Assembly (NCBI GenBank): GCA_018831195.1
Contig: JAHJDP010000031.1
Coordinates: forward strand, 7,151 to 71,150
Origin: Candidatus Eiseniibacteriota bacterium
GTDB taxonomy: Bacteria > Eisenbacteria > RBG-16-71-46 > CAIMUX01 > JAHJDP01
DNA: 64,000 nt
Direction of reading: 5' to 3'
This document shows, piece after piece, positions 5,686 to 57,098 of this stretch. The number at the start of each line of letters is the position of its first letter. Position 1 is the first letter of the stretch. A model generated the notes under the pieces. It saw nothing but the letters and a program-made list of their open reading frames with translations, was not told the origin of the DNA and ran no database searches. Both the position numbers and the translations under genes were made by a program.

Positions 5686-6411
5686 ATGAAAGCGGCAATC
5701 CCAATTTTGTTTCTCAGTATGCTGATTCCGGCGGCACTTACTATGGAAGCGGCCGGCGACGCCCTTGATTTGGGTTTCTCCACCAATACGATCCTTATCG
5801 AAAGCGAAACGGGCAGGGATTGTGAGCTTCCATTTGAGTATCTGATAAATGACGACGGGTCTTTCGAGAACGGATACGCCTGGTCCCATGACGGAGCCTT
5901 GGAGCCGTACTATGGGGCTTGGGCGGAGAGCTTCCCCCAGGGATGGGTCCGCAGTCTTGCCTTTTGGTTCACCCAGACCGGAGACTGGGCCGGCCAATCA
6001 TTGGATGCCTACATTTGGGAATATGATGCCGGGAACCCCGGCAATGTCCGCTGCCTGATTCCCGATCAAATCATAGACATGCCGGCTTACTGGCCTACAT
6101 TCTCAGCACATGAAGTTGAGGTTAATTGTGATACCGGCGATTTGCATTTCGCCGGATTTTGGGGAAACTGGCCGGATGAACAAAACGGGTGGTTTCTGGC
6201 GGCCGATGAAGACGGTCCCGGCGTAGGAGATCCAAGAACGAATATTTCCCCCCTTGCCACGGAATGGCCGCAGGGTTGGCACCACCCGAATATCCTGCCC
6301 CCCTTTGAAGAGTGTAAGAATCTCGGCATTCATGAGTGCTGGGTGGCGGGGGTCCACCCGACCGCCGCCAACCAAGCGACCTGGGGATCCATAAAATCGC
6401 TCTATCGTTGA
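5686..6411 (+). CDS. Secreted Cys-rich hypothetical protein ending in the TWGxIKxLY C-terminal tail
   Basis: RBS GGAGGAT; signal peptide MKAAIPILFLSMLIPAALTMEAAG; ends ...AANQATWGSIKSLYR; tail shared with three other proteins in window. Confidence 0.7.
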   Translation: MKAAIPILFLSMLIPAALTMEAAGDALDLGFSTNTILIESETGRDCELPFEYLINDDGSFENGYAWSHDGALEPYYGAWAESFPQGWVRSLAFWFTQTGDWAGQSLDAYIWEYDAGNPGNVRCLIPDQIIDMPAYWPTFSAHEVEVNCDTGDLHFAGFWGNWPDEQNGWFLAADEDGPGVGDPRTNISPLATEWPQGWHHPNILPPFEECKNLGIHECWVAGVHPTAANQATWGSIKSLYR

Positions 6412-11917: not shown

Positions 11918-12219
11918 AGATTTGGATGCCCCGATACTAGGTCAAGAAATGATCCCGCGAAACAGCCGCGGGACCGCCCCGAAACGATTTTCACCTCATC
12001 GGCGGCGCCATTATCCGCAACAAGAAAATCACCTCTTCAGCGATGGGCAAACCGACCGAAAGGTTCTTGTGGAGACCCTAGAAAACCGTCTATTATGGTG
12101 GCGCAGATGCGCCCTCAGGGGCCAGACATGACAGCGGCTAAACGCCAGCTGGAGCCGGGTATCCCCTTTCACTTCCGGCAAGTAGCTGGAGCCAATCGGT
12201 ATTGCACCTGGAGGTCCCC

Positions 12220-13395
12220 ATGAGGATTCCCACCCATCTGAGGCCATTCTACGCCGCCCTGATCTTGATACTCCTCTTTCTCTTCCCACCCTCTCACGCC
12301 ACCGCCGATGGAGACGCCCGGGGGAAAATCGCCGTTATCGAAGATGCTGCGATGCTGCATGCCTTCAGCACGGAGACGGGACATTGGTCATCCCTCAACT
12401 ACAGCGGAAGCGTGATGACCCATCTTCTCAGCGACTATCTGGGTCTCTTCATAACGGATGAGAATGTTTATGCCTACAATCCGATCAGTAATAACTGGGT
12501 GCCCCACCACTATCTTGGAAACCTCCTGGGATGGGATCTCAAGTCGGCCACCGCGGTCTGCTGGACGGCGAACAACTGCTTTGCCGTCGCAACGATTTGG
12601 GCTCAATGGAATGTCGAGCCGATGTCCTATCGAGAGCGGGTGATCGGAGCCGGTTCGGCCGGCAATTTCGCTCTTGTGTGGACAAATGTGCGCGCCTTGG
12701 CCTACAGCTCGGGAACAGGCGCTTGGGTTACGATCCAACTGCCGGAAAGAGCGGTTGGCGGGCTTGCCTCCGACGGATTGGGGCTTGTTTGGACCGATGC
12801 CAGTGTCTATGCCTTTGACGCGACGCCCCCCGGCGCTTGGATACCGCTTGGTCTGGAGGGGGTTCAAGGGATCAGCGCCGCGGGATCGGGGGAAATCGGT
12901 TTGATCTGGGGTGACAATGAGGCCCTGGCCTACAGCGGCGTCCTGAACGATTGGTTTAACATAAATAGCGATCAGTCGTTTCTTGGAGGCGTCGCCGGCG
13001 GCGAGGTCGGGTTGATCTGGACCGAGACAAAGGCTTTCGGCTTCAATGCATGGACCGGTCAATGGGTGAGTCTCTCTCTGCAACCAGAGACATCCGGCGT
13101 GGAGGAGCCATCGCAAAGCTCATCGGACCAATTCAGGATCTCTCCGAACCCCTGCGCGGGCCCCACCATGAGCTTCCAGCTTCCCGGTGATTCATCCTGG
13201 AGATTGGATATTGTTGATGTCACCGGACGCCGTGTTCGACGGTTTGATTCTTCAGAACTCTCTCCGGGCGCCTCGTTGGAATGGAATCGCACCGATGAAG
13301 AGGGCCGGTCGTTGCAAGCCGGTGTCTACTGGGTTCAGGCGAGATCAGAGAACCGCGAGGAAGTCCGGCGGATTGTTCTTCTGCCGCCGCAATAG
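12220..13395 (+). CDS. Secreted protein with seven tandem 38-residue repeats and a T9SS-type C-terminal sorting domain
   Basis: RBS GGAGGT; signal peptide; repeats with consensus GLIWTDxxAYAYxxxTGxWV at strict 38-aa period x7; C-terminus SPNPCAG..RLDIVDVTGRRV..WNRTDEEGRSLQAGVYWVQAR..RRIVLL matches the T9SS C-terminal-domain / Por_Secre_tail pattern. Confidence 0.75.
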   Translation: MRIPTHLRPFYAALILILLFLFPPSHATADGDARGKIAVIEDAAMLHAFSTETGHWSSLNYSGSVMTHLLSDYLGLFITDENVYAYNPISNNWVPHHYLGNLLGWDLKSATAVCWTANNCFAVATIWAQWNVEPMSYRERVIGAGSAGNFALVWTNVRALAYSSGTGAWVTIQLPERAVGGLASDGLGLVWTDASVYAFDATPPGAWIPLGLEGVQGISAAGSGEIGLIWGDNEALAYSGVLNDWFNINSDQSFLGGVAGGEVGLIWTETKAFGFNAWTGQWVSLSLQPETSGVEEPSQSSSDQFRISPNPCAGPTMSFQLPGDSSWRLDIVDVTGRRVRRFDSSELSPGASLEWNRTDEEGRSLQAGVYWVQARSENREEVRRIVLLPPQ

Positions 13396-13416
13396 CCTGC
13401 ATTCTTGCATGCCAAA

Positions 13417-13441
13417 CGCCCGGACTCACAGAACCCGGGCG
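13417..13441. terminator. Hairpin CGCCCGG-N11-CCGGGCG between convergent genes (weak T-tract on either side)
   Basis: Seen directly; near-copy of the hairpin at 14450..14476. Confidence 0.3.
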
Positions 13442-13495
13442 CCGGCTTGACATCTTTGTTGTCGCACTCTTTTTTGTTAAACGCTCCCCAGATGC

Positions 13496-14254
13496 TTATT
13501 CGTAGAGTCTCTTGATCTGACCCCACGTGCTTTCCCGTGTGGGCGTCGGCTCGTTACAAAGGGCGTTAAAGAAGGTCACGGTTTCGGTCTCCCCCCATTC
13601 GAGATTGATAATCTGTGATTCGGGGTAGATCGGCTCCCAATCCGGCGGCATGATTTCCGATACTATATATTCACCGAGAAGGAGACCCTCCCAGCAGAAG
13701 CGACCGGAGTTGTCCGTCATCCGGCAAAATTGATCGCCATAGGGAGTCTCGATACAGACCCACCAGCCGGGAATAGGAAGATCCACATCGGTCAGGATTT
13801 CATTGCAATCGGTATCTTCATACTTCTCGGCGCAGATCGTTCCCGTGCCATTACAAACATAAAAGGTCACTTCGGCAATCGCCTCATCGCCCGCCTCAAA
13901 TGACCAGTATTCCAGACGGATCCAATATTTCCCGTCGAGGAGACTGTTTGGAACCGTCCAATACCGAGTGATGCTCATGCCGGTGGCGCCTGGATAGGTT
14001 TCCGTATCGAGGAGAATTGTCTGTGTGGGATCCCACAATTCAAAGAGCACATAGTTCGGAGTCGTGGAATAGGTTATCTCCCATGAAATCTCAACCTGGC
14101 CGCCCGGATTCTCGACGCAAAAGGGTGGTTCCGGCTCTCGTCCCAGATTGATCGTTGCCTCGGATATGTCCGCCAGAAGCGGTGTCGCCATGATGGCCGC
14201 GAGGACCAAAACCAAGAGAACCTTCAATGCTATCATGTTGCCGTTCAATTTCAT
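13496..14254 (-). CDS. Secreted Cys-rich protein, tandem paralog 1, ending ...EPTPTRESTWGQIKRLYE
   Basis: RBS AAGGGAGGAG before MKLNGN; signal peptide ending LLAD; ~70% identical to the next gene. Confidence 0.75.
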   Translation of the reverse strand: MKLNGNMIALKVLLVLVLAAIMATPLLADISEATINLGREPEPPFCVENPGGQVEISWEITYSTTPNYVLFELWDPTQTILLDTETYPGATGMSITRYWTVPNSLLDGKYWIRLEYWSFEAGDEAIAEVTFYVCNGTGTICAEKYEDTDCNEILTDVDLPIPGWWVCIETPYGDQFCRMTDNSGRFCWEGLLLGEYIVSEIMPPDWEPIYPESQIINLEWGETETVTFFNALCNEPTPTRESTWGQIKRLYE

Positions 14255-14431
14255 CGATGCTCCTCCCTTCATATAGATTAGGTATCGACGCTGCTTCATC
14301 GTCCCTGCATCAAATCCATGCTTCGAAATATACTTATTTATGAAATAACTAATAATAATATCACTAATTGAGATCGGATATCAAGTCTATTTGGAGGGCC
14401 CGGCGAGTTTAATGCGGATCAGGTTAAGGCT

Positions 14432-14477
14432 TAAAAAAAGGACGGAAAACGCCCGGGTTCTCACCAAACCCGGGCGC
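14432..14477 (-). terminator. Rho-independent terminator (minus strand) after paralog 2: stem GCGCCCGGGTT/AACCCGGGCG then TTTTCCGTCCTTTTTTT
   Basis: Seen directly: 9-10 bp GC stem, 7-nt loop, U-run. Confidence 0.7.
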
Positions 14478-14503
14478 AATCTCATGCCAGCTGCGGATAA
14501 AAC

Positions 14504-15262
14504 CTATTCGTAGATTCTCTTGATCTGGCCCCATGTGCTTTCACGAGTTGGTGTTGGCTCAGGGCACATGCTGTTGAAGAAGGTGATGGTGATCGACTCA
14601 CCCCACTCAAGATCAACAAGCTGAGATATGGGATAAATAGGCACCCAGTCGGGCTGCATGACCTCAAAAACCGTGTATTGACCGAGCTGGAGACCATCCC
14701 AACAGGCGATTCCGTATTGATCGGTTTGCTGACAGTACTGATCGCCATAGGGGGTTTCCAAGCAAACCCACCAACCCTGGATGGGGAGATCGGCCCTATT
14801 CAGAATGCCGTCGCAATCGGTATCATCCCACTTCTCAGCGCAGATGCTGCCGGTACCATTACAAACGTAGAAAGAGACTTCGGCATTGGCTTCATTGCCG
14901 GCCTCGTATGACCAAAACTCGATTCGGATCCAATATTTCCCATCAACAAGCCCATTCGGGACAACCCAACTCCGCATGATGTTCACACCCGTTGCGCCGG
15001 GATAGGTTTCGGTTTCAAGCAGAACCGTCATGGTGGGATCCCAAAGCTCATAGAGGACAAAATTCGGTGTCGTCTCGTATGTGACGAACCAGTTGATATC
15101 GAGTGTTCCCCCTGGATTTTCAACGCAGTACGGCGGTTCAGGCTCCCGTCCCAGGTTGATTGTGGCTTCCATCGGATCAGCCAGGACTGGAACGATCAAA
15201 GTGATGGCTAATGTTAAAGCCAAACAAACGGTGAGGATTGAACGGCTGGCGTGAGTCTTCAT
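14504..15262 (-). CDS. Secreted Cys-rich protein, tandem paralog 2, ending ...EPTPTRESTWGQIKRIYE
   Basis: RBS GGGAGGGG before MKTHAS; signal peptide ending VLAD; shares CVENPGG, CNGTG-IC-AEK, WWVC-ETPYGDQ-C motifs with paralog 1. Confidence 0.75.
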   Translation of the reverse strand: MKTHASRSILTVCLALTLAITLIVPVLADPMEATINLGREPEPPYCVENPGGTLDINWFVTYETTPNFVLYELWDPTMTVLLETETYPGATGVNIMRSWVVPNGLVDGKYWIRIEFWSYEAGNEANAEVSFYVCNGTGSICAEKWDDTDCDGILNRADLPIQGWWVCLETPYGDQYCQQTDQYGIACWDGLQLGQYTVFEVMQPDWVPIYPISQLVDLEWGESITITFFNSMCPEPTPTRESTWGQIKRIYE

Positions 15263-15489
15263 CGATGCCCCTCCCACTGTGGCCGGATGCCGACCAAAGT
15301 ATGTCTTCCCTGCATCACGTTGCGGGTCCTAAATAGACCCATTCCTACAATCACACTGGATGATATCAGCCAATGGAGCGAATTACAAGTGTATTTTTGC
15401 TTGAGACGCCCAGAAAAAGAAGACTCGCAATTCCTTGTCCACGTTGGAGTTGGAATTCATGGCCGAGGAGAAACCCTTGATTTGAATGT

Positions 15490-15936
15490 TTACGGCCTGT
15501 TCTCTGGGGGCGGCGGGCCGATTTGGGTGCCAATGCCGACACCGGGAAATCCGGTGTCTCTCACGATATCGAGTATCCAGACAACCTCTCCATGGCGGAC
15601 CCCCGCCTCGGCCTTAATCATCACCCGGCTCTGGGGATCGGCCGCCAGGATCTCGAGCAAGCGTCCCTTGAGTTGGGGCATGGGCGTCTCCTCGCCATCG
15701 AGAATAAGACGGCCGCTTTCGGTCATGATGACCTCGACCTCATGCGCCAGCTCCCCCTCCAACGCCGGCGTCGACGTGGTCGAGCGCGGCAATTGAAGTT
15801 CGAGCTCACCCACCCGTTTGAAGGTCCCGGTCACAGCAAAGAAAATGATCAATAGGAAAAGAACATCGATCAATGGTGTCACATTGAGGGTGATCTGCTT
15901 GCGCTCTTTTCCGATCCGGAAGGAGATGGCGCTCAT
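15490..15936 (-). CDS. exbD: ExbD/TolR biopolymer transport protein
   Basis: NVTPLIDVLFLLIIFF TM motif typical of ExbD. Confidence 0.85.
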   Translation of the reverse strand: MSAISFRIGKERKQITLNVTPLIDVLFLLIIFFAVTGTFKRVGELELQLPRSTTSTPALEGELAHEVEVIMTESGRLILDGEETPMPQLKGRLLEILAADPQSRVMIKAEAGVRHGEVVWILDIVRDTGFPGVGIGTQIGPPPPENRP

Positions 15937-16601
15937 CGGTCCACCTCCCTTGATGAGGTCGCGGATGACGTCATCGATGCGGCCGCCGGTGAGGCCGGGT
16001 GGTTCAAACGAAGTTGAGCCACCAGATGCCCGGCATAGGCTTCTATTTCGGCGACGAGGGTTTCGGATTTTGAGGCGAGGACATTGTAAGTGATAAGGGA
16101 GGGAATGCCGATTCCCAGCCCGATGGCCGTCGTGACAATCGCCTCGCTGATGCCGCCGGAAAGGGCCTGCGGATCACCCAGACCGGAGAGAGAGATCGAG
16201 GCGAACATCTTTATCATTCCCAGCACCGTTCCAAGCAGGCCGAGCAACGGCGCCGCCTGCGCGATTGTTTGTAACCAGACAAGATGCCGTTCCAACACGG
16301 CTGTCTTTTGACGGCCCATATCGACCAGCATGTCGCGCATGATTTCCCATGGTTCATGGGCGTATTCGAGTCCGACGAGGATCACATCCGAAAAGACACC
16401 CGGGTTACGCCGGCAGACTTCAATCGCAAGATCCAGCTCACGGTTGGGACGAACCGCTTCAACCACCTCGATGATTTCGCGGGGCAGCACGCGGCTCCGT
16501 CTCAGGGCCAGTATCCGCTCGATCGCAATCGTGGTCGCAACAATGCTGCAGAGCGCCAGCGGGTAAATGAGGGGTCCGGCCTTTTGCAGGAACTCAAACA
16601 T
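15933..16601 (-). CDS. exbB: ExbB/TolQ/MotA-family proton channel
   Basis: Three TM helices, GLLGTVLGMI motif; 4-nt overlap with exbD. Confidence 0.85.
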   Translation of the reverse strand: MFEFLQKAGPLIYPLALCSIVATTIAIERILALRRSRVLPREIIEVVEAVRPNRELDLAIEVCRRNPGVFSDVILVGLEYAHEPWEIMRDMLVDMGRQKTAVLERHLVWLQTIAQAAPLLGLLGTVLGMIKMFASISLSGLGDPQALSGGISEAIVTTAIGLGIGIPSLITYNVLASKSETLVAEIEAYAGHLVAQLRLNHPASPAAASMTSSATSSREVDR

Positions 16602-16626
16602 GAACAGGGTCTCCTTCCGGGTTCTT

Positions 16627-17790
16627 CTAACGCCGAGAGCGCGGGCGCCCCGTCTCTTGGCGCTGAGTCTCTGGTGGTAGCGCCTTGTAACTCATACGAA
16701 TTTGAAGGATCAGGGTCTTCTCTGGAAAATGGCTGGGAAGGGGGTCATAGGGGGCCGCCTTCCGGAGCGCGTCGACACTGGCCTCCCGAAGCGCTTGGTG
16801 GCCGTCCGCCGCGATGACATCACACCGGAGAAGCTCGCCGGTCAGCGCGATCTCAAGCTCGCAATCAGTATAACCATGTATCAAGCCGAGATGGTATCCG
16901 AGCGGGGCAATCCATTTTTGTATAACTTTGCGCCGAAACTGCTGCATCCAGTAACCATAGGCCCATTCAGTCGTATTGAGACTGATAATCCCCGAGAGAT
17001 CGGTATTCCCGCCGGGGCTCGACATCGCCTCTTGCGCGATATCGCTCATTCCAAGGGGCTGGATACGCCGTTGCGCTGAGTCGGAGGCGAGACCCTGCTC
17101 CAGGAAAGATTTCATGGGATGCTCCAGTCCCGCGCCTTTGGGAATCAGAAAAGAGCTTCCCGTTTCAGATGGTTCAGGCGTTTCTTTTATTTCCGGTGAT
17201 TCTATATTTTCAGCGGTAACCTCGGGTTCCGCGCCCTTATCTTCGGGCTTTTCCTCGGGCTTGACCGCCTCAGGCGCCGTGGCATCTTCCGGCCTTTCCG
17301 TCTCAGCCGTCATTCCCTGCGCCGTCCCCTGGTCCATCCTGATCTGCGGGGCGTCGGAGTAACCCTCCTGGCGCGGCAGCGCCCCGGCCTCTCCTCCGGG
17401 CAGGTCGTCCCGCGTGCGGCTCGTGACGTTGCTGAGATAATCGGCCCGCTCGGGAGGATCATCCGCCCGATCGGGTGGGAGTTCGGTGAAAAAGGTCGGC
17501 TCTTCCGGCGTCGGGGGTTGGGGGTCCGGTTCCGGCGCAAAGACGACCTGAATCGGCTCCGGCGCTTCCTTTTGTGCCAAGGCCGGTTCCACAAGATGCA
17601 GGAATTGAGCCGCGAGGAGAACTCCAAAATGGAGCATCAGCGTGAGGATAAAGGCAAAGATCCAGACACCCCGTCTTGACCGATGTTGCCCGAGTATCGG
17701 GGTTTGCGGCCCCGGTCCACCCGGCCTGGTCATCAGTGTCGCTTGGTGGGAAATATTCATCGAGTGTCTCGGTTTGCGGATCATCGGCAC
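16627..17790 (-). CDS. TonB-like energy transducer (N-terminal TM anchor, Pro/Glu-rich spacer, C-terminal TonB domain)
   Basis: TM VWIFAFILTLMLHFGVLLAA, long PEP/PEE-rich region, C-terminal domain with ...YPxxAxxxxxG pattern (KWIAPLGYHLGLIHGY...LRKAAPYDPLPSHF); start GTG 17790 or ATG 17784. Confidence 0.7.
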   Translation of the reverse strand: MPMIRKPRHSMNISHQATLMTRPGGPGPQTPILGQHRSRRGVWIFAFILTLMLHFGVLLAAQFLHLVEPALAQKEAPEPIQVVFAPEPDPQPPTPEEPTFFTELPPDRADDPPERADYLSNVTSRTRDDLPGGEAGALPRQEGYSDAPQIRMDQGTAQGMTAETERPEDATAPEAVKPEEKPEDKGAEPEVTAENIESPEIKETPEPSETGSSFLIPKGAGLEHPMKSFLEQGLASDSAQRRIQPLGMSDIAQEAMSSPGGNTDLSGIISLNTTEWAYGYWMQQFRRKVIQKWIAPLGYHLGLIHGYTDCELEIALTGELLRCDVIAADGHQALREASVDALRKAAPYDPLPSHFPEKTLILQIRMSYKALPPETQRQETGRPRSRR

Positions 17791-42128: not shown

Positions 42129-44522
42129 TCAGGCCGCTTTTCGTTTGCAGACGAAACGTTCAATCACTGTTCTAAGATCATGAATGTTTATCGGTTTTGG
42201 AAGATAGTCATCCATGTCGGCGGCGATGCAGCGATCCCGATCCTCCTTGAATGCGTGTGCCGTCAGTGCAATGATTGGGATTCTCAGATCTGTGATCGAT
42301 TCGAGGGCCCGAATCTCGGCCGTCATCTCAAACCCATCCATTTCCGGCATTTGAATATCAGCTAGGATGATATCGAAAGCATGTCTTCGGAAAATGGCCA
42401 ATCCCTCGCGACCATTAGACGCGATCATGACCTCGCAACCCAATTTGCGCAAGAGGGCCCGTGCAAATATCTGATTCACCTTGTTGTCCTCGACAAGAAG
42501 GACACGCGTTCCGGCAAGAAGGCCGATCACGGGCATGTCCTGATCGACATCAGCCGATAATGCCGATATCTCATCGATTGAAGATATCGCATCCTTGCCG
42601 GCCAAAAGAGCCATAAGGGGAATCGGTTTCACAGGTAGCACCAAGGTTTCATATCCACCCTCAGCATCAATGTTAATTCCACTTGGTGTTTCCCCGAGAG
42701 GGATCATGACACACAGTCTGGATTGCTTTTGTTCATGAATTTCAGTCAATAGATCATTGATTGGCGATGTGCCCGATTGATCAAGATCGCCATTATAAAT
42801 AATGCAATAGTAATAACCGGGACGTTTCTTGGCGGCGGATAAAAATTCCATGAATTCCCCCGCTGTTTCCGCTTGATCAACGGCAAAACCAAGATGACCC
42901 AACTGCCGGGACAACGCCATGCATGTCACCGGCCTGTGGCTCGCCAGAAGGATCCTCCGCCCCTCTCCCTTGGTCCAAGAAAGATCCAGCGCCCGATCCT
43001 CAAAGATCGATTCCTCAATTGGGAGATGAATCGTAAAGTAGAAACGACTCCCTTTCCCCGGCGCGCTGTCAACTTTCAGCTGCCCGCCCATCAACTCAAC
43101 CAACCGGCTCGAAATGGCAAGTCCGAGTCCTGTGCCTCCATAACGGCGCGTTGTCGATGAATCGGCCTGTGCAAATGCCGCGAACACACGATCCTGTGCA
43201 TCGTTGTCGATACCGATCCCCGTATCAATGACGCTGAATGTCAAAGGAACCATTTCGGGAGATACCGATCCATTGAGCGCGGCCGGCGCCAGCTCAACGG
43301 CTATCTGTATGGATCCGGTCTCCGTGAATTTCAAAGAATTGCCGATCAGATTGACCAAAACCTGTCGCAGCCGGCCGGGATCGCACGACACATATCTTGG
43401 CACCCTTGGATCCATGTAGCATATATATTCTAAATCCTGCTGTGCTATTTGAACACTGAAGGTGCTGACAATCGTTTCAACCGTCGCATATAGATCCACC
43501 GGTATCGCTTCAAGCTGAAGCCGGCCTGCTTCGACTTTTGAGAAATCGAGAATGTCATTAATGATACTAAGAAGAGCATTGGCGCTGCTTTTTACAATGC
43601 CCAAGAAATTTTGCTGCTCCTCATCCAATCGAGTCGCCAGAGTAAGATCCGTCATGCCGATAATGCCGTTCATCGGAGTTCTGATTTCATGGGACATATT
43701 CGCCAGGAATTGGCTTTTGGCGCTATTTGCTCTTTCAGCGGCATCCTTTGCCTCCACCAAAGCCTGTGTTCGCTCTTCTACCTTCGCTTCGAGGTTCTTA
43801 CTGTAGTCCTCGATTTCCTTTCTCGAATAGCGCAAGCTCTGGGTCATGGCATTGAATACGTTGGCCAACCGGCCCAATTCATCCGTCCCTCTCACGGATA
43901 CAGAGACATCGAGGTTGCCCCGGGACATTTCCTCGGCGGCCTTGGCCAATGCTTCAACAGGTCGTGTGATCCGGCGGGAAATGAGAATACCAACGAGCAA
44001 ACCGATCACGGCGACAGCCAGACTCACTAACAATGTCCAGAATTGGTTCCGCCGGATCTCGGCCTTTCCTTCCGCCCTCGATAAACCGAGAACCAGGGTT
44101 CCGTAGCGCCCACTCGATGTCTTTATCGGGGACAGCACCAATAGCCGATCTTCTTCAAACAGGACCCGTGTCCCCTCTGTGCTTGACCAGTCTTCGATAA
44201 CAGATTGTTCCGGCAACGGTGTTTGCGTTAACGAGTTCCCGAATGCATCGAGAACTTGGACAAAAACAATTTCCGGATCCCGCACAAGGCTGGCGATCGC
44301 CTCATTAAGAGAACGTCTATCCTCAAACTCGAGAGGGGCGCTGAGGTTATAGGCCAGCATCTCTGTAATACCGACCCCCTTCGATACCAGCGCGGCGCCG
44401 GCAAGCCGCTCCAGTCGCGGCGGGAAGAAGACGGCAATGGATATCGCGCCCACAAGCGAGACGGCGACGAGGGCCAGAATGACCCGGGCGCGAATTGAAA
44501 GTTGTGGAAGCCGTCTACTCAT
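42129..44522 (-). CDS. Hybrid sensor histidine kinase/response regulator (TM-HAMP-HisKA-HATPase-REC-REC)
   Basis: H-box [18 protein letters not shown]1/G2 boxes, two receiver domains with conserved Asp ([12 protein letters not shown]). Confidence 0.9.
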
Positions 44523-44527
44523 CACTC

Positions 44528-45140: not shown

Positions 45141-47120
45141 CTAGAACTCCACACATAGACTTGTATAGATTCTCCGTCTAAATTCAATCGTCCAGGGATG
45201 ATCTCTGTATCTTCGATCCAAAATATTATCAACACCGACTATGGCCTGAACACCTCGACTCCGGGGCCTGATCCGCCAGCGGGCGTCCATAACAAAATAT
45301 TCATCCCCCGGCCCTTCCGTCTCCATGGTGTTGAAATTTGTCAGATCCCACTCCGTCGCTGATCGGTAGCGGCCCATCAAGCTGATGGAGTGAATTGCGT
45401 GAGGCATCAATATAAGTTCGCCGACCAATGTATGACGCGGGGTGCTTATCTTCCGGTCGCCGGTATCCTTATCCTCAGCCCAGATATAGGAATATCCAAA
45501 TCGTGTTTTCATCCATTCGGTAATAAGGGCGTCAAGGCTGGTTTCCACACCGGCAATATCCCAGCCGCCCTTGTTTGTGAATCCAAATTCAGAAGGGATT
45601 CCCTCTGGAAAGGGTGGAGCGGGAAAATATGCCAGTGAGCTCAGCTGAACGACTTCCCTGATCCGATTGCGATACAATGCCACTGATCCAAGGACATTTT
45701 TTGTGAGAAGACCTTGATATCCAAGCTCGAGAGAACGAATTTCTTCGGAATTGAGCGCCTCATTCCCATGAACCAGGATATTCACTGTTGGAATCAATTC
45801 TATCTCGGCACGCCCATAACTCTCAAGGAATGTTGGATCCCGATAGGCTTCACCATATGTCAGGCGCAAAGCATGGTTTTCATGTGGTTTGTAGACAATT
45901 CCCCCGCGTGGTGCGATATGTTCTCCGACCAGTGGATGGTCATCATAGCGGACTCCAAGGGAAAAGAGGAGATTTCCGCGAGGCCGCCATTCATCATAAA
46001 GAAAGGCTGAATGGAGATTCTGCTCTTCTGAATTTTGAAACAATGTCCATTTTACCTCCTTGCGACGGAAGTTGCCTCCCCAGAGCACGAAGTTGCTGGG
46101 TTCAACAGAAAATGAATGCTGAAATTCAACATCATGGATTCCGTTATCCAAAGTCCCAATATCGTTGATGGAAATAAGATCCAAGAAATTGCCATCCAGA
46201 TGCCACTCGGTCCAGAAGTACCGCAAGCTTACATTCTTCCATCTTAAATCCGCACCGGCGAGTTGGTATTGTCCATCCATATTGATAATTGTACTACCGG
46301 TACTCATGTTCATGAAGCCATTGCTGTTTCCTGTAAAGAGAGATATTGACGCCTCGTCATTGAGTCGATAGATTGCTTCGCCGTTGAATCGGGACATCTC
46401 TTCTTCTTGATATTCAGTTTCCCAATTTTGAGTCGTTTCCCAACCACCGCTTAGTTTCCAACTCAATGGGCCGTAACTGTTCCCGTGAACGAACGAACTC
46501 AACTCCTCGCCGACATGCGATGCCTTTACATTCAAGATGGTGGCGTCATTCTCGCCTGGCTTGTAAGTGATGATGTTGATCACTCCAGCAAAAGCGTTGG
46601 CGCCGTAGAGGGCTGATCCGGGTCCCTTTATAATCTCGATACTCCTAATTTCCTCCAACGAAACCGGCAGGAACTCCCAAAGTGTCATGCCATAGAAATC
46701 CGCATAGACGGACCGGCCGTCGATCATGACCAACATGTTGTTGGATGGAATCGTATTGAGACCGCGAGCGCTGACATCGAAGCATGAAGCCGTATTGGTA
46801 ATGACTTCAAGCCCTGGTGTACTGAGCAGGAGTTCGGGTATGCTGCGGGCACCGGAGGCGGCGATTTGCTCGGCGGTTATGATAGAGACCGAGACCGGCG
46901 ATTCGCTGCTCTTCTGAGCATATTTTGAGGCGGTTATGACCGTGCTATTTAGCAGGGCATCTAGATCAAGCTCACTGAAATCATCAAACTCGGAATGAGG
47001 TTCTCCGGCCCAAAGGGGTTCAGTCCCGACTCCCAGGGCGCTGATAAGGATGGTCAAAAGAAATCCGCCGATGACCCCAAAGCTTCTGATACTCAAGGTG
47101 CCTTCCTTTTTCTTGATCAT
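45141..47120 (-). CDS. TonB-dependent outer-membrane receptor (BtuB-like candidate)
   Basis: Signal peptide, TonB box STVITAS, plug domain, 22-strand barrel, C-terminal ...SLCVEF terminal Phe. Confidence 0.9.
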   Translation of the reverse strand: MIKKKEGTLSIRSFGVIGGFLLTILISALGVGTEPLWAGEPHSEFDDFSELDLDALLNSTVITASKYAQKSSESPVSVSIITAEQIAASGARSIPELLLSTPGLEVITNTASCFDVSARGLNTIPSNNMLVMIDGRSVYADFYGMTLWEFLPVSLEEIRSIEIIKGPGSALYGANAFAGVINIITYKPGENDATILNVKASHVGEELSSFVHGNSYGPLSWKLSGGWETTQNWETEYQEEEMSRFNGEAIYRLNDEASISLFTGNSNGFMNMSTGSTIINMDGQYQLAGADLRWKNVSLRYFWTEWHLDGNFLDLISINDIGTLDNGIHDVEFQHSFSVEPSNFVLWGGNFRRKEVKWTLFQNSEEQNLHSAFLYDEWRPRGNLLFSLGVRYDDHPLVGEHIAPRGGIVYKPHENHALRLTYGEAYRDPTFLESYGRAEIELIPTVNILVHGNEALNSEEIRSLELGYQGLLTKNVLGSVALYRNRIREVVQLSSLAYFPAPPFPEGIPSEFGFTNKGGWDIAGVETSLDALITEWMKTRFGYSYIWAEDKDTGDRKISTPRHTLVGELILMPHAIHSISLMGRYRSATEWDLTNFNTMETEGPGDEYFVMDARWRIRPRSRGVQAIVGVDNILDRRYRDHPWTIEFRRRIYTSLCVEF

Positions 47121-56321: not shown

Positions 56322-57098
56322 CTATTGATATATCGATTTGACACCTCCCCATGTTGTGAGCTTTCTTGGAGTCGGCTGGCATGGATTGGGCTCGCAGGAA
56401 CCACCGAACCAATCACCACCACCCTCCAAACATTCAGAGCTATGCAGTAGCAGGCAAGTAGAACCGAAACAACAGGCGCCGTATTCCGGATTCCACGGCG
56501 GACATTCCGGATTCCAACCGGGCGCGCCGCCGTACCCCATGGCTCCGAAGCCCTCAATGAGGTCAAGCGTCGCCGGTTCGGAACAGTCAGCGACCGCCGC
56601 ATGGTTTAAGGGATGATCGACGAGCGGAATCTCTCCGGCGGCGGCATAGACATAAATGCCAAAGTAATAGACGGGCACCATCTGGCCATATGAGCAATCG
56701 GGTGTCCAGGCGACCGCCGTTCCGGTTCCAGGAGCCGGCCATCCGGCGGTCGGCGCCTCGAGTGCGCCCGGTTTGCAGGAACCGAAATATCCGATATAGG
56801 TTTCGCTGGGTGTGTAATCCCCCAGTCCAAATGTCACCATATTGAAATTCGTCGCATTGCCGCGGGGCGAGACAACAAGAATGAGATACCAATAGACGTC
56901 GATTAGAGGATCGGGAATCGCCGATGGTATGAGATCGATGCAATCCTCGGGTACTTCAATTTGCTCACAGGGATCTGGAGGATACCAAGGCTCACCCTGA
57001 TTCCCGTGGACGGCCAAAACCACCCCTGCATTGGATCCGGCATGAGCGGAGCCCATGGTGAGCACGGTACAAACCAACAAATATGACAGGAGTTTCAT
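56322..57098 (-). CDS. Secreted Cys-rich hypothetical protein ending ...PTPRKLTTWGGVKSIYQ
   Basis: Signal peptide MKLLSYLLVCTVLTMGSAHA; same C-terminal tail as 5686..6411 and the tandem paralogs. Confidence 0.7.
   Translation of the reverse strand: MKLLSYLLVCTVLTMGSAHAGSNAGVVLAVHGNQGEPWYPPDPCEQIEVPEDCIDLIPSAIPDPLIDVYWYLILVVSPRGNATNFNMVTFGLGDYTPSETYIGYFGSCKPGALEAPTAGWPAPGTGTAVAWTPDCSYGQMVPVYYFGIYVYAAAGEIPLVDHPLNHAAVADCSEPATLDLIEGFGAMGYGGAPGWNPECPPWNPEYGACCFGSTCLLLHSSECLEGGGDWFGGSCEPNPCQPTPRKLTTWGGVKSIYQ

What the first reader, a model, noticed from the sequence alone, without database searches (positions are those of the whole stretch)
13496..15262. Tandem duplicated Cys-rich secreted paralogs immediately downstream of tonB-exbB-exbD, with duplicated leader and hairpin elements
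The two ~250-aa genes are about 70% identical and share invariant Cys-containing blocks: CVENPGG, YVCNGTG-ICAEK, DTDC, GWWVC-ETPYGDQ-C, CW-GL-LG and C-EPTPTRESTWGQIKR-YE. Each has its own strong RBS. Their upstream leaders share the string TCCCTGCATCA, and near-identical GC hairpins (CGCCCGG..CCGGGCG) follow each copy. The whole unit was therefore duplicated. They sit on the same strand directly after exbD with a 227-nt gap, which suggests a functional link to the TonB energy-transduction system, for example TonB-dependent export or uptake-associated surface proteins. No family is recognisable.
Basis: seen in the sequence. Interest (0 to 1): 0.7.

Follow-up and report, generated by a model that had tools for sequence, protein, structure and literature searches.

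The report
Secreted paralogs with undescribed C-terminal tag
Two duplicated genes of an uncultured Eisenbacteria bacterium encode small secreted adhesin-like proteins; sitting next to tonB-exbBD looks accidental, but their last 17 residues are a conserved C-terminal tag, apparently undescribed, that marks many unrelated secreted proteins in several uncultured phyla and is probably a sorting signal.

Summary
Two minus-strand genes (14504..15262 and 13496..14254, 252 aa each) are 71% identical. Each copy has its own promoter-like site, leader motif, RBS and terminator hairpin, and they start 227 nt after exbD. The window comes from a Candidatus Eisenbacteria MAG.

The TonB interpretation fails. 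None of 10 homolog contexts has tonB/exbBD adjacent, and none of 120 further loci with tag-bearing genes contains exbB or exbD.

The proteins do have recognisable parts: a signal peptide, an Ig-like beta-sandwich, and a CnaB/SdrD-B-type beta-sandwich (AF2 pLDDT 87; BcpA, SdrD and pilin hits).

The main result is the tail. P-[TV]-P-[VT]-E-x-x-[ST]-W-G-x-I-K-x-[LM]-Y-R-COOH also ends two unrelated secreted proteins in this window. It ends at least 150 ORFs with at least 74 unrelated bodies in Eisenbacteria, Krumholzibacteriota, Latescibacterota, Gemmatimonadota and Zixibacteria MAGs, and in MAGs labelled Fibrobacteraceae. It nearly always sits one residue from the stop. It never co-occurs with the FlgD-Ig/T9SS-like C-terminal domain (CTD) and replaces it on homologous bodies. 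It also sits on "choice-of-anchor" and PEP-CTERM-type bodies. No Pfam or NCBIfam model and no paper found describes it.

Best reading: surface or extracellular structural proteins that carry a new, transmembrane-less C-terminal sorting signal. The machinery is unknown.

The parts
14504..15262 (-). Paralog A CDS (252 aa; database entry P0001, locus tag KJ970_05725). Signal peptide aa 1-28, Ig-like beta-sandwich aa ~34-134, CnaB/SdrD-B-like beta-sandwich aa ~137-231, Pro/Thr linker plus C-terminal tag aa 236-252.
   Evidence: 100% match to P0001; AF2 pLDDT 87
13496..14254 (-). Paralog B CDS (252 aa; P0002, KJ970_05720). Same architecture as A and 71% identical to it.
14507..14557 (-). C-terminal tag of paralog A: PTPTRESTWGQIKRIYE-COOH.
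   Evidence: tail logo; low-confidence helix 241-251, not packed on the domains
13499..13549 (-). C-terminal tag of paralog B: PTPTRESTWGQIKRLYE-COOH.
15179..15262 (-). Signal peptide of A (MKTHASRSILTVCLALTLAITLIVPVLA|D).
   Evidence: helix 3-23; the cleavage site is inferred from the A-x-A-like motif and the conserved mature N-terminus
14171..14254 (-). Signal peptide of B (MKLNGNMIALKVLLVLVLAAIMATPLLA|D).
15360..15388 (-). Promoter-like site of copy A (TTGTAA-17-TGnTATCAT). It aligns with the equivalent site of copy B.
14355..14384 (-). Promoter-like site of copy B (TTGATA-18-TGnTATTAT, 10/12 matches with an extended -10 TG).
15307..15317 (-). Duplicated leader motif TGATGCAGGGA (copy A), 45 nt upstream of the ATG. 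Function unknown; no Rfam match.
14302..14312 (-). Duplicated leader motif TGATGCAGGGA (copy B), 48 nt upstream of the ATG.
14434..14478 (-). Intrinsic-terminator-like hairpin after copy A (GCGCCCGGGUU..AACCCGGGCG followed by a U-rich run).
13417..13441 (-). Homologous GC hairpin after copy B. It has no long U-run and lies between convergent genes.
5686..6411 (+). Unrelated secreted protein (241 aa from the MKAAIPI start) ending in the same tag: ...HPTAANQATWGSIKSLYR-COOH.
   Evidence: (the only similarity to paralog A is the 18-aa tail)
56322..57098 (-). Second unrelated secreted protein (258 aa, P0050), with one Cys-rich GACC...PNPC module followed by the tag: ...QPTPRKLTTWGGVKSIYQ-COOH.
12202..13395 (+). 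Convergent neighbour: a ~390-aa repeat (propeller-like) secreted protein with a FlgD-Ig/T9SS-like C-terminal domain. It recurs next to the family gene in 4 of 11 contexts.
15490..17790 (-). Context only: the tonB-like (16627..17790), exbB (15933..16601) and exbD (15490..15936) operon upstream. Its adjacency is not conserved in relatives.

Best explanation
The locus is a tandem duplication of a self-contained gene cassette: promoter, leader, SD, CDS and terminator hairpin.

Each copy encodes a ~25-kDa Sec-exported protein built from two rigid beta-sandwich domains.
- The N-terminal domain is Ig-like.
- The second is a CnaB/SdrD-B-type domain with a DxDxDG-like Ca loop, conserved Cys pairs and a conserved Lys/Glu/Asn triad. 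The triad could form an intramolecular isopeptide bond.
- These are the domains that adhesin and pilin stalks are made of. No catalytic domain is present.

The protein ends in a short Pro/Thr linker and the motif [ST]WGxIKx[LI]Y[ERQ]-COOH. This tail is one instance of a widespread modular C-terminal tag, consensus P-[TV]-P-[VT]-E-x-x-[ST]-W-G-x-I-K-x-[LM]-Y-R-COOH. The tag marks signal-peptide-bearing proteins with many unrelated bodies in Eisenbacteria and allied FCB-group candidate phyla.

The most likely mechanism is inferred, not shown. After Sec export, the free C-terminal tag is read by an envelope receptor or translocon. That receptor would carry the protein across the outer membrane, attach it to the outer membrane or cell surface, or both. 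This would play the role that the T9SS C-terminal domain (CTD) or the PEP-CTERM-type signals play for homologous proteins elsewhere. The paralogs would then be surface or extracellular structural or adhesive proteins.

Their position after tonB-exbB-exbD is incidental.
For: **Shown**
- 71% identity, and the whole unit is duplicated.
- Signal peptides and a two-beta-sandwich model, pLDDT 87.
- Foldseek and profile hits to BcpA, SdrD, UafA, GBS52 and CnaB2.
- Domain 2 is a repeat unit in about 12,800 proteins, many of them multi-repeat proteins 1-8 kaa long.

**Evidence on the tag**
- Four ORFs in this 64-kb window and a fifth elsewhere in the same MAG end with it. Their bodies are otherwise unrelated.
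Nearly all came from Eisenbacteria, Krumholzibacteriota, Latescibacterota, Gemmatimonadota, Zixibacteria, Fibrobacteraceae-labelled or unnamed MAGs.
- 157 tagged ORFs fall into 74 body clusters, and 121 of them have a signal-peptide-like N-terminus.
- Positions the search pattern did not select are still conserved: [ST] at -10 in 140/148, P at -15, E at -13.
- 168 of 175 motif occurrences lie 1-2 residues from a stop codon.
- Tag codons differ at synonymous sites, so selection acts on the peptide.
- No tagged ORF carries the FlgD-Ig/T9SS-like CTD, although 54 ORFs in the same loci do.
- Homologous bodies end either in the tag or in that CTD. Examples: L013 versus L115; L089, L080 and L066 versus L097; L053 versus L034; L073 versus L038.
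- Tagged bodies hit NCBIfam choice-of-anchor V/J/W, ScyF (PEP-CTERM), the rhombosortase- and myxosortase-dependent M36 families and an MYXO-CTERM family.
- Tagged bodies carry extracellular-type domains: beta-helix, LTD, NHL, MAM, CBM20, TED, Cleaved_Adhesin.
- AF2 leaves the tail unpacked in two unrelated families.

**Against a TonB link**
- 0 of 10 homolog contexts and 0 of 120 tag loci have ExbB/ExbD nearby.
Against: - There is no experimental evidence. Every sequence comes from an uncultured MAG.
- No recognising machinery was identified. No conserved non-tagged neighbour gene appears in the 120 loci.
- The tag has no transmembrane helix and is far shorter than any T9SS CTD, so there is no precedent for how such a signal would be read.
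- It could equally be an anchor or docking peptide rather than an export signal.
- The 120 loci were selected by a pattern that fixes W, G, I, K, Y, R and the stop codon. Conservation at those positions, and C-terminality within that set, are therefore partly circular. The unselected evidence is the window (4 of 4 motif occurrences C-terminal), the homolog sets, the relaxed matches, and positions -10, -13 and -15.
- The signal-peptide call is a simple heuristic.
- The isopeptide bond and Ca-binding are inferred from conserved residues only.
- Read-through transcription from exbD cannot be excluded, because no convincing terminator follows exbD.
Confidence: 0.6

Rival explanations
1. The tag is not an export signal but a retention or docking peptide. 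It could be a short amphipathic segment that binds a membrane surface or the cell wall. Alternatively it could plug into a scaffold or receptor protein, as a minimal dockerin-like or strand-complementation peptide. Either way it would hold already-secreted proteins at the envelope.
For: - AF2 predicts a short helix for residues 241-251 of paralog A, at low confidence.
- W, I and L/Y alternate with K and R. The mean hydrophobic moment is 0.44 as a helix and 0.46 as a strand.
- The tag is often preceded by 1-5 Cys-rich spacer modules, as expected for something presented on a stalk.
- The fixed distance to the free carboxy-terminus fits a peptide-binding receptor.
Against: - Ten residues is short for stable membrane binding.
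- The tag replaces T9SS-like CTDs and sits on bodies that elsewhere carry sortase-type signals, all of which are sorting and processing signals.
- No candidate scaffold gene is linked to tagged genes.
- This rival overlaps with the best explanation, since sorting signals often end in attachment.
Confidence: 0.2
2. The paralogs would be cargo or accessory proteins of the adjacent TonB-ExbB-ExbD system, for example TonB-dependent export or uptake-associated surface proteins, co-transcribed with it.
For: - They are on the same strand, 227 nt downstream of exbD, with no convincing terminator after exbD.
- L010 has an exbB-exbD-exbD-tonB cluster 7.4 kb upstream of a homolog.
- From general knowledge, not tested here: TonB-dependent secretion has one precedent, Myxococcus PopC/Oar.
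Against: - 0 of 10 homolog contexts have the cluster adjacent.
- 0 of 120 loci with tagged genes contain ExbB/ExbD.
- Each copy has its own conserved promoter-like site and terminator.
- The other tagged genes of the same genome sit beside housekeeping genes: PGI/GlmS, an M20 peptidase and AIR-synthase-like gene, and groESL.
Confidence: 0.04
3. The tag is a recognition element for a periplasmic C-terminal processing protease or a PDZ-domain protein. In that case it would work as a degron, maturation signal or stress-sensing signal rather than a localisation signal.
For: - The strict position at the free C-terminus, with one residue after Y in 158 of 175 cases, is what PDZ-type or tail-specific protease recognition needs.
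- Degenerate copies exist.
Against: - It is hard to see why dozens of unrelated extracellular-type proteins per genome would share a degron.
- Interchange with CTD and sortase-type signals points to sorting.
- From general knowledge: a terminal Arg is atypical for known PDZ or Prc ligands.
Confidence: 0.06
4. The shared tail has no common function. It would be a lineage-specific sequence spread by recombination or duplication, and the paralogs would be ordinary periplasmic proteins.
For: - Tagged genes often occur in tandem arrays, which could inflate the counts.
Against: - There are 74 unrelated body clusters across at least five phylum-level lineages.
- Synonymous divergence of tag codons indicates purifying selection on the peptide.
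- The tag is strictly C-terminal and mutually exclusive with the CTD.
Confidence: 0.03

Closest known systems
T9SS C-terminal domain (type A CTD, TIGR04183/PF18962; here also the FlgD-Ig-like CTD, PF13860)
   Same: - It sits at the extreme C-terminus of Sec-exported proteins with very diverse bodies.
- It occurs in FCB-group lineages, with many copies per genome.
- The tag and the CTD are found on homologous bodies and are mutually exclusive.
- Both end in a basic/hydrophobic/basic stretch (resemblance only).
   Different: - The CTD is a ~70-100-aa seven-stranded Ig-like beta-sandwich (PMC4804311). The tag is ~17 aa, unstructured or a short helix in AF2 models.
- The tag matches no CTD model.
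Exosortase/rhombosortase/myxosortase-type C-terminal sorting signals (PEP-CTERM, GlyGly-CTERM, MYXO-CTERM, IPTL-CTERM and others)
   Same: - A short conserved signature at the C-terminus of signal-peptide proteins that share no other similarity, with many per proteome. This is the discovery criterion described in 10.1101/2023.06.07.544157 and PMC1569441.
- Tagged bodies include choice-of-anchor domains and homologs of PEP-CTERM and MYXO-CTERM proteins.
- From memory: the PT...WG.I string loosely recalls the IPTLSEWG signature of IPTL-CTERM.
   Different: - Those signals are tripartite: motif, transmembrane helix, Arg cluster (10.1101/2023.06.07.544157). The tag has only 7 residues after WG, so no transmembrane helix and no Arg cluster.
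- An intramembrane sorting protease is therefore unlikely.
- No NCBIfam sorting-signal model hits it.
CnaB / SdrD B-repeat domains of Gram-positive MSCRAMMs and pilins (BcpA, SdrD, UafA, GBS52)
   Same: - Domain 2 of the paralogs has this fold and a weak but specific sequence match.
- The Lys and Glu of the BcpA CNA-type isopeptide triad align with K144 and E200.
- A DxDxDG-type loop is present, as in SdrD B repeats.
   Different: - These are small two-domain proteins of a diderm bacterium.
- They are stabilised additionally by conserved cysteines.
- They have no LPXTG signal and no ligand-binding A region.
- The Pfam score is below the gathering threshold (21.9 versus 29.7 bits).
C-terminal amphipathic membrane anchors of periplasmic proteins (e.g. 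E. coli PBP5/DacA; from general knowledge)
   Same: - A short C-terminal amphipathic segment with no transmembrane helix on a Sec-exported protein.
   Different: - Known anchors are ~18 residues or longer and are not a conserved motif shared across unrelated families.
- The tag's invariant W-G and its fixed terminal position suggest specific recognition instead.

Membership tests
CnaB / SdrD_B (prealbumin-like) domain superfamily, domain 2 of the paralogs | Sequence match to the family profile | tested here: inconclusive
   Pfam SdrD_B scores E 2e-4, 21.9 bits, below the 29.7-bit gathering score. The family profile hits the BcpA CNA domain at E 2e-7 and SdrD at 8.5e-5 in PDB. The profile finds 12,795 repeat-domain proteins.
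CnaB / SdrD_B (prealbumin-like) domain superfamily, domain 2 of the paralogs | Beta-sandwich fold superposable on solved CnaB/SdrD-B domains | tested here: met
   The AF2 model has pLDDT 87. Foldseek top hits are BcpA, UafA, SdrD and GBS52 at E ~1e-8, and CnaB2 8bdw at TM 0.72 over the domain.
CnaB / SdrD_B (prealbumin-like) domain superfamily, domain 2 of the paralogs | Lys-Asn/Asp isopeptide bond with catalytic Glu (CnaB proper) | not testable with these tools
   K144 is nearly invariant, and E200 and N230 are invariant in 32 homologs. K and E align with BcpA 'LTK' and 'YQIFE'. Bond formation needs mass spectrometry or a crystal structure.
T9SS cargo (type A/B CTD) | C-terminal ~70-100-aa Ig-like beta-sandwich CTD matching TIGR04183/TIGR04131/PF18962 | tested here: not met
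   The tail is 17 aa, a low-confidence helix or disordered. There is no CTD hit in the paralogs or in 157 tagged ORFs. The CTD definition is from PMC4804311.
T9SS cargo (type A/B CTD) | Sec signal peptide, diverse bodies, FCB-group host | tested here: met
Tripartite sortase-type C-terminal signals (PEP-CTERM, MYXO-CTERM, GlyGly-CTERM, IPTL-CTERM) | Signature motif followed by a hydrophobic transmembrane segment and an Arg-rich cluster | tested here: not met
   Only 7 residues follow WG (x-I-K-x-L-Y-R), so there is no transmembrane segment. No NCBIfam sorting-domain model matches 8 tail peptides at E<=10 or appears among the 25 families most often matched by the 113 tagged proteins at E<=1. The architecture definition is from 10.1101/2023.06.07.544157.
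Tripartite sortase-type C-terminal signals (PEP-CTERM, MYXO-CTERM, GlyGly-CTERM, IPTL-CTERM) | Many proteins per genome, all with N-terminal signal peptides and otherwise unrelated | tested here: met
   Five tagged proteins were seen in ~76 kb of this MAG. There are 74 body clusters among 157 tagged ORFs, 121 of them with a signal-peptide-like N-terminus. A whole-proteome count was not possible.
TonB-ExbB-ExbD system (as operon member or cargo) | Conserved gene-neighbourhood with tonB/exbB/exbD in relatives | tested here: not met
   0 of 10 homolog contexts are adjacent. 0 of 120 tagged-gene loci contain ExbB/ExbD.
TonB-ExbB-ExbD system (as operon member or cargo) | Co-transcription with exbD | not testable with these tools
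   Each copy has its own promoter-like site, but no clear terminator follows exbD. RNA-seq is needed.

The most novel reading that the evidence does not exclude
The tail P-[TV]-P-[VT]-E-x-x-[ST]-W-G-x-I-K-x-[LM]-Y-R-COOH is the signal of a previously unrecognised protein-sorting pathway in Eisenbacteria, Krumholzibacteriota, Latescibacterota, Gemmatimonadota and related FCB-group phyla.

It would be a minimal, transmembrane-less, domain-less C-terminal signal read at the free carboxy-terminus. Dedicated outer-membrane or periplasmic machinery would read it. That machinery would be either unknown or a divergent T9SS-like receptor that accepts a 17-residue peptide in place of an Ig-fold CTD. It would direct dozens of proteins per genome to the cell surface.
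Probability: 0.35. Interest if true: 0.8.

Novelty: new variant of a known kind. Interest (0 to 1): 0.6.

Why it matters
C-terminal sorting signals (LPXTG, PEP-CTERM, the T9SS CTD and others) have repeatedly led to the discovery of new secretion and surface-attachment machinery, and they define the surface proteome of whole phyla.

A 17-residue tag with no transmembrane segment does not fit either known design. It marks many unrelated secreted proteins across several uncultured phyla, and it swaps with T9SS-like domains on homologous bodies.

If it is a sorting signal, three things follow:
- It gives a simple sequence handle for predicting the exoproteome of Eisenbacteria and relatives, which have no cultured members.
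- It sets up a direct phylogenetic-profiling search for the cognate machinery.
- It offers a very small portable export or display tag.

For the original finding, it matters that the TonB adjacency is incidental. No new TonB-dependent export system should be inferred from this locus.

Tried and rejected
- **TonB linkage.** Tested by synteny in 10 contexts and by phmmer over 130 loci. Rejected.
- **Regulatory RNA in the duplicated leader.** Rfam with permissive thresholds on 13300..15600 gave only a chance miRNA hit inside exbD.
- **Hairpin as a dispersed REP-like repeat.** It occurs only at the two sites.
- **Known tag models.** NCBIfam on 8 tail peptides at E<=10 and on 113 full tagged proteins, and Pfam on the same 113, found no shared model.
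- **Literature.** Searches for motif strings and for Eisenbacteria, Krumholzibacteriota or Latescibacterota with sorting or T9SS returned nothing relevant. The Haft myxosortase preprint lists other CTERM signals, including an orphan WGxxGxxG-CTERM, all of MYXO-CTERM-like design and none matching this tag.
- **Conserved machinery gene next to tagged genes.** All-against-all clustering of ORFs from 120 loci found no non-tagged family in more than 7 loci.
- **Helix versus strand amphipathicity of the tag.** Undecided: 0.44 versus 0.46.
- **AFDB Foldseek.** The library was unavailable.
- **AF2 of the second tagged family.** Only a mediocre model, pLDDT 62.6.
- **First genome-scan pattern.** It had too few specified bases and was re-run with CGN for Arg.
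- **Body-cluster count.** The largest cluster was partly joined through shared Cys-rich repeats. For example, L007 11005..11904 belongs to the second family, not the paralog family. The 74 clusters are therefore a lower bound.
Full report
**1. Observation**

The two genes lie on the minus strand. Copy A is 14504..15262 and copy B is 13496..14254, each 252 aa.

- Both copies have a GGGAGG-type RBS 5 nt before the ATG.
- The string TCCCTGCATCA occurs exactly twice in the window, 45 and 48 nt upstream of the two starts.
- The hairpin CGCCCGG-N-CCGGGCG occurs exactly twice, just after each stop codon, against 0.01 expected.
- Aligning the two units shows the similarity begins at a promoter-like site (TTGTAA-17-TGnTATCAT and TTGATA-18-TGnTATTAT) and runs through leader, RBS and CDS to the hairpin.
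- The hairpin after copy A is followed by a U-run.
- exbD, exbB and a TonB-like gene are confirmed upstream, and the exbD-to-A gap is 227 nt.

The inference that a whole transcription unit was duplicated is sound.

**2. Source and family**

Copy A is identical to a hypothetical protein of a Candidatus Eisenbacteria MAG (KJ970_05725; assembly GCA_018825035.1). Forty-nine homologs were found, 45-60% identical, all from metagenomes or Eisenbacteria MAGs.

The alignment of 32 shows this architecture:
- a signal peptide and a conserved mature N-terminus (EATISLGRDPEPPxC);
- two conserved domains;
- in some members, 1-5 inserted Cys-rich ~37-aa modules (GACC...C...C...PNPC);
- always at the extreme C-terminus, P[ST][PA]xxx[ST]WGx[IV]Kxx[YF][RE].

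**3. Structure**

AF2 with this alignment gives pLDDT 87. It shows a signal-peptide helix, beta-sandwich 1 (aa 34-134), beta-sandwich 2 (aa 137-231), and a low-confidence helix at 241-251 that does not pack on the domains.

- Foldseek against PDB returns Gram-positive pilin and MSCRAMM stalk domains: BcpA, SdrD, UafA, GBS52, and CnaB2 at TM 0.72.
- The family profile hits the BcpA CNA domain at E 2e-7 and SdrD at 8.5e-5.
- Pfam SdrD_B, SpaA and Big_13 hits are sub-threshold.
- A profile search of 1.84 billion representatives finds 12,795 proteins. Among the 150 best hits, which are the only ones listed, most match through positions ~133-230 as repeats in proteins 1-8 kaa long. Only about 10-20 of those 150 show the full two-domain architecture.
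- K144 (nearly invariant), E200 and N230 (both invariant) are conserved. K and E align with the isopeptide Lys and catalytic Glu region of BcpA.
- D147-x-D-x-D-G152 resembles an SdrD-type Ca loop.

The isopeptide bond and Ca-binding are inferences. So 'no family recognisable' is only partly right. The body is an adhesin or stalk-type pair of beta-sandwiches with no catalytic domain.

**4. TonB link**

Ten genomic contexts of homologs were read.
- None has tonB/exbB/exbD adjacent.
- L010 has such a cluster 7.4 kb and four genes away.
- phmmer with the window's ExbB, ExbD and TonB against every ORF of all fetched loci found only the window itself and L010.
- The other tagged genes of the same MAG sit beside PGI/GlmS, an M20 peptidase and AIR-synthase-like gene, and groESL.
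- Each copy has its own promoter-like site and terminator.

The recurring neighbour is instead a ~390-aa repeat protein with a FlgD-Ig/T9SS-like C-terminal domain (CTD). It lies at window 12202..13395 and appears in 4 of 11 contexts at 36-38% identity.

**5. The C-terminal tag**

A six-frame scan of the window finds the motif W-G-x-[IV]-K-x-x-Y at exactly four places, all immediately before a stop codon. These are the two paralogs, ORF 5686..6411(+) and ORF 56322..57098(-). The latter two are signal-peptide proteins whose only similarity to the paralogs is the 18-residue tail. Their tag codons differ at synonymous positions, so the peptide itself is under selection.

A degenerate DNA pattern for WGxIKxxYR-stop was scanned over one genome per species, 596 Gb in all. 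My estimate is about 200 chance matches over the whole collection.
- About 40 loci are labelled Eisenbacteria, 6 Krumholzibacteriota, 4 Latescibacterota, 3 Gemmatimonadota, 3 Fibrobacteraceae and 1 Zixibacteria. The rest are unnamed MAGs.
- Only about 5 look like chance hits: an archaeon, a cyanobacterium, a planctomycete, an alphaproteobacterium and one unnamed MAG (L075).
- None is from a cultured organism.

In all loci together:
- 157 ORFs end in the tag. They fall into 74 body clusters, a lower bound because shared Cys-rich repeats join some. 121 have a signal-peptide-like N-terminus.
- The tail logo is Cys-rich at -20 to -18, then P(-17)[TV]P[VT]E(-13)xx[TS](-10)WGxIK[SA][LM]YR.
- Positions -10 (140/148 S/T), -13 and -15 were not part of the search pattern, so their conservation is independent evidence.
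- Of 175 motif occurrences in all six frames, 158 have exactly one residue before the stop and 10 have two.

**6. What the tag replaces**

- jackhmmer finds 54 ORFs with the FlgD-Ig/T9SS-like CTD in the same loci. None of the 157 tagged ORFs has it.
- Homologous bodies end either in the tag or in that ~85-aa CTD. Three L013 beta-helix proteins align almost end to end with L115 5160..6935, which carries the CTD. L089, L080 and L066 pair with L097; L053 with L034; L073 with L038.
- Pfam on 113 tagged proteins shows extracellular-type domains: Beta_helix, NosD, LTD, NHL, PD40, MAM, CBM20, TED and Cleaved_Adhesin. Most have no Pfam domain.
- NCBIfam on the same set shows no model shared by most members, so no tag model exists.
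- The bodies do hit choice-of-anchor V, J and W, the PEP-CTERM protein ScyF (5e-58), the rhombosortase- and myxosortase-dependent M36 peptidases, and an MYXO-CTERM family.

The tag therefore occupies the place held by established sorting signals in homologs.

It meets the criteria by which such signals were recognised: many per genome, all with signal peptides, otherwise unrelated (10.1101/2023.06.07.544157, PMC1569441). It lacks their transmembrane helix and Arg cluster, and it is far too short to be the Ig-fold T9SS CTD (PMC4804311). A second AF2 model, of the family of 56322..57098, leaves the tail disordered, though that model is only pLDDT 62.6.

**7. Mechanism**

Shown:
- a duplicated cassette;
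- Sec signal peptides;
- two beta-sandwich domains;
- a modular, strictly C-terminal, taxon-restricted tag that is mutually exclusive with, and interchangeable with, CTD-type signals.

Inferred:
- After Sec export, a receptor in the periplasm or outer membrane reads the free C-terminal peptide. It would deliver or attach the protein to the cell surface.
- The paralogs would then be surface structural or adhesive proteins.

Unknown:
- The machinery. No linked gene family emerged.
- Whether the tag is cleaved.
- Whether it mediates export or only retention.

**8. Novelty**

- The paralogs themselves are new members of a known kind: CnaB-type surface proteins in an uncharacterised Eisenbacteria family.
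- The tag is a new variant of a known kind, C-terminal sorting signals, and is not represented in Pfam, NCBIfam or the searchable literature.
- The TonB idea should be dropped.

The interest lies in the tag. It is a concrete, testable lead to an undescribed sorting route in several uncultured phyla.

Noticed in passing
window 56322..57098 (-), aa ~199-240; also P0042, P0009, P0022, P0043, P0044 and P0052-P0062: A Cys-rich ~37-aa module (GACCxxxxCxxxxxxxCxxxGGxWxGxxxxC[ED]PNPC) with no Pfam or NCBIfam model. It occurs in 0-5 tandem copies between unrelated bodies and the C-terminal tag, like a spacer or stalk.
   Followed up: partly
window 12202..13395 (+); L002 11302..12474; L007 11989..13143 (-); L133 3435..4610 (-): A ~390-aa secreted repeat protein (GLVWT...AYAY repeats, propeller-like) with a FlgD-Ig/T9SS-like C-terminal domain. 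It is a neighbour of the paralog family in 4 of 11 contexts (36-38% identity), a more conserved partner than tonB-exbBD.
   Followed up: partly
L054 1649..7850; L013 1222..6421; L044, L048, L081, L105, L017, L036: Tagged genes often form tandem paralog arrays in other MAGs. L054 has 7-8 copies in 6 kb, L013 has three beta-helix proteins, and one ~230-aa family recurs as pairs. This mirrors the duplication in the window.
   Followed up: partly
L063 6744..7547 (-); L054 7143..7850 (+): Degenerate tags occur on clear paralogs or homologs of tagged proteins (ETWTAIKALYR with G->T; EEHDEIKDLYR lacking WG). This suggests occasional decay or variation of the signal.
   Followed up: no
window tags at 14507..14557, 13499..13549, 6358..6408 and 56325..56375; P0051 on another contig (L134 10001..10786): In this MAG the final residue of the tag is E, E, R, Q and E. 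It is R in 142 of 148 tags from other genomes, though the scan pattern required Arg (CGN) at that position, so this comparison is biased. It may be a lineage-specific variant of the signal and its reader.
   Followed up: no
window 14320..14400: A strongly AT-rich ~80-nt stretch in a 55% GC genome lies between the two copies, overlapping and just downstream of copy B's promoter-like site. Copy A's upstream region is less AT-rich.
   Followed up: no
window 14504..15262 (-), aa 144, 200, 230 and 147-152: The conserved K144/E200/N230 triad and the DxDxDG loop suggest an intramolecular isopeptide bond and Ca2+ binding in the CnaB-like domain. Copy B has a degenerate loop (DCNE instead of DCDG).
   Followed up: partly
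window 45141..47120 (-): A TonB-dependent receptor (Plug plus beta-barrel) lies 28 kb from the tonB-exbBD cluster, next to a hybrid histidine kinase (42129..44525). It is a more plausible client of the TonB system than the paralogs.
   Followed up: no
window 16627..17790 (-): The TonB-like protein has only a sub-threshold TonB_C match (20.4 bits against a 24.6-bit cut-off) and a long Pro/Glu-rich linker, with weak hits to GltJ and TolA models. Its assignment as TonB proper is not firm.
   Followed up: no
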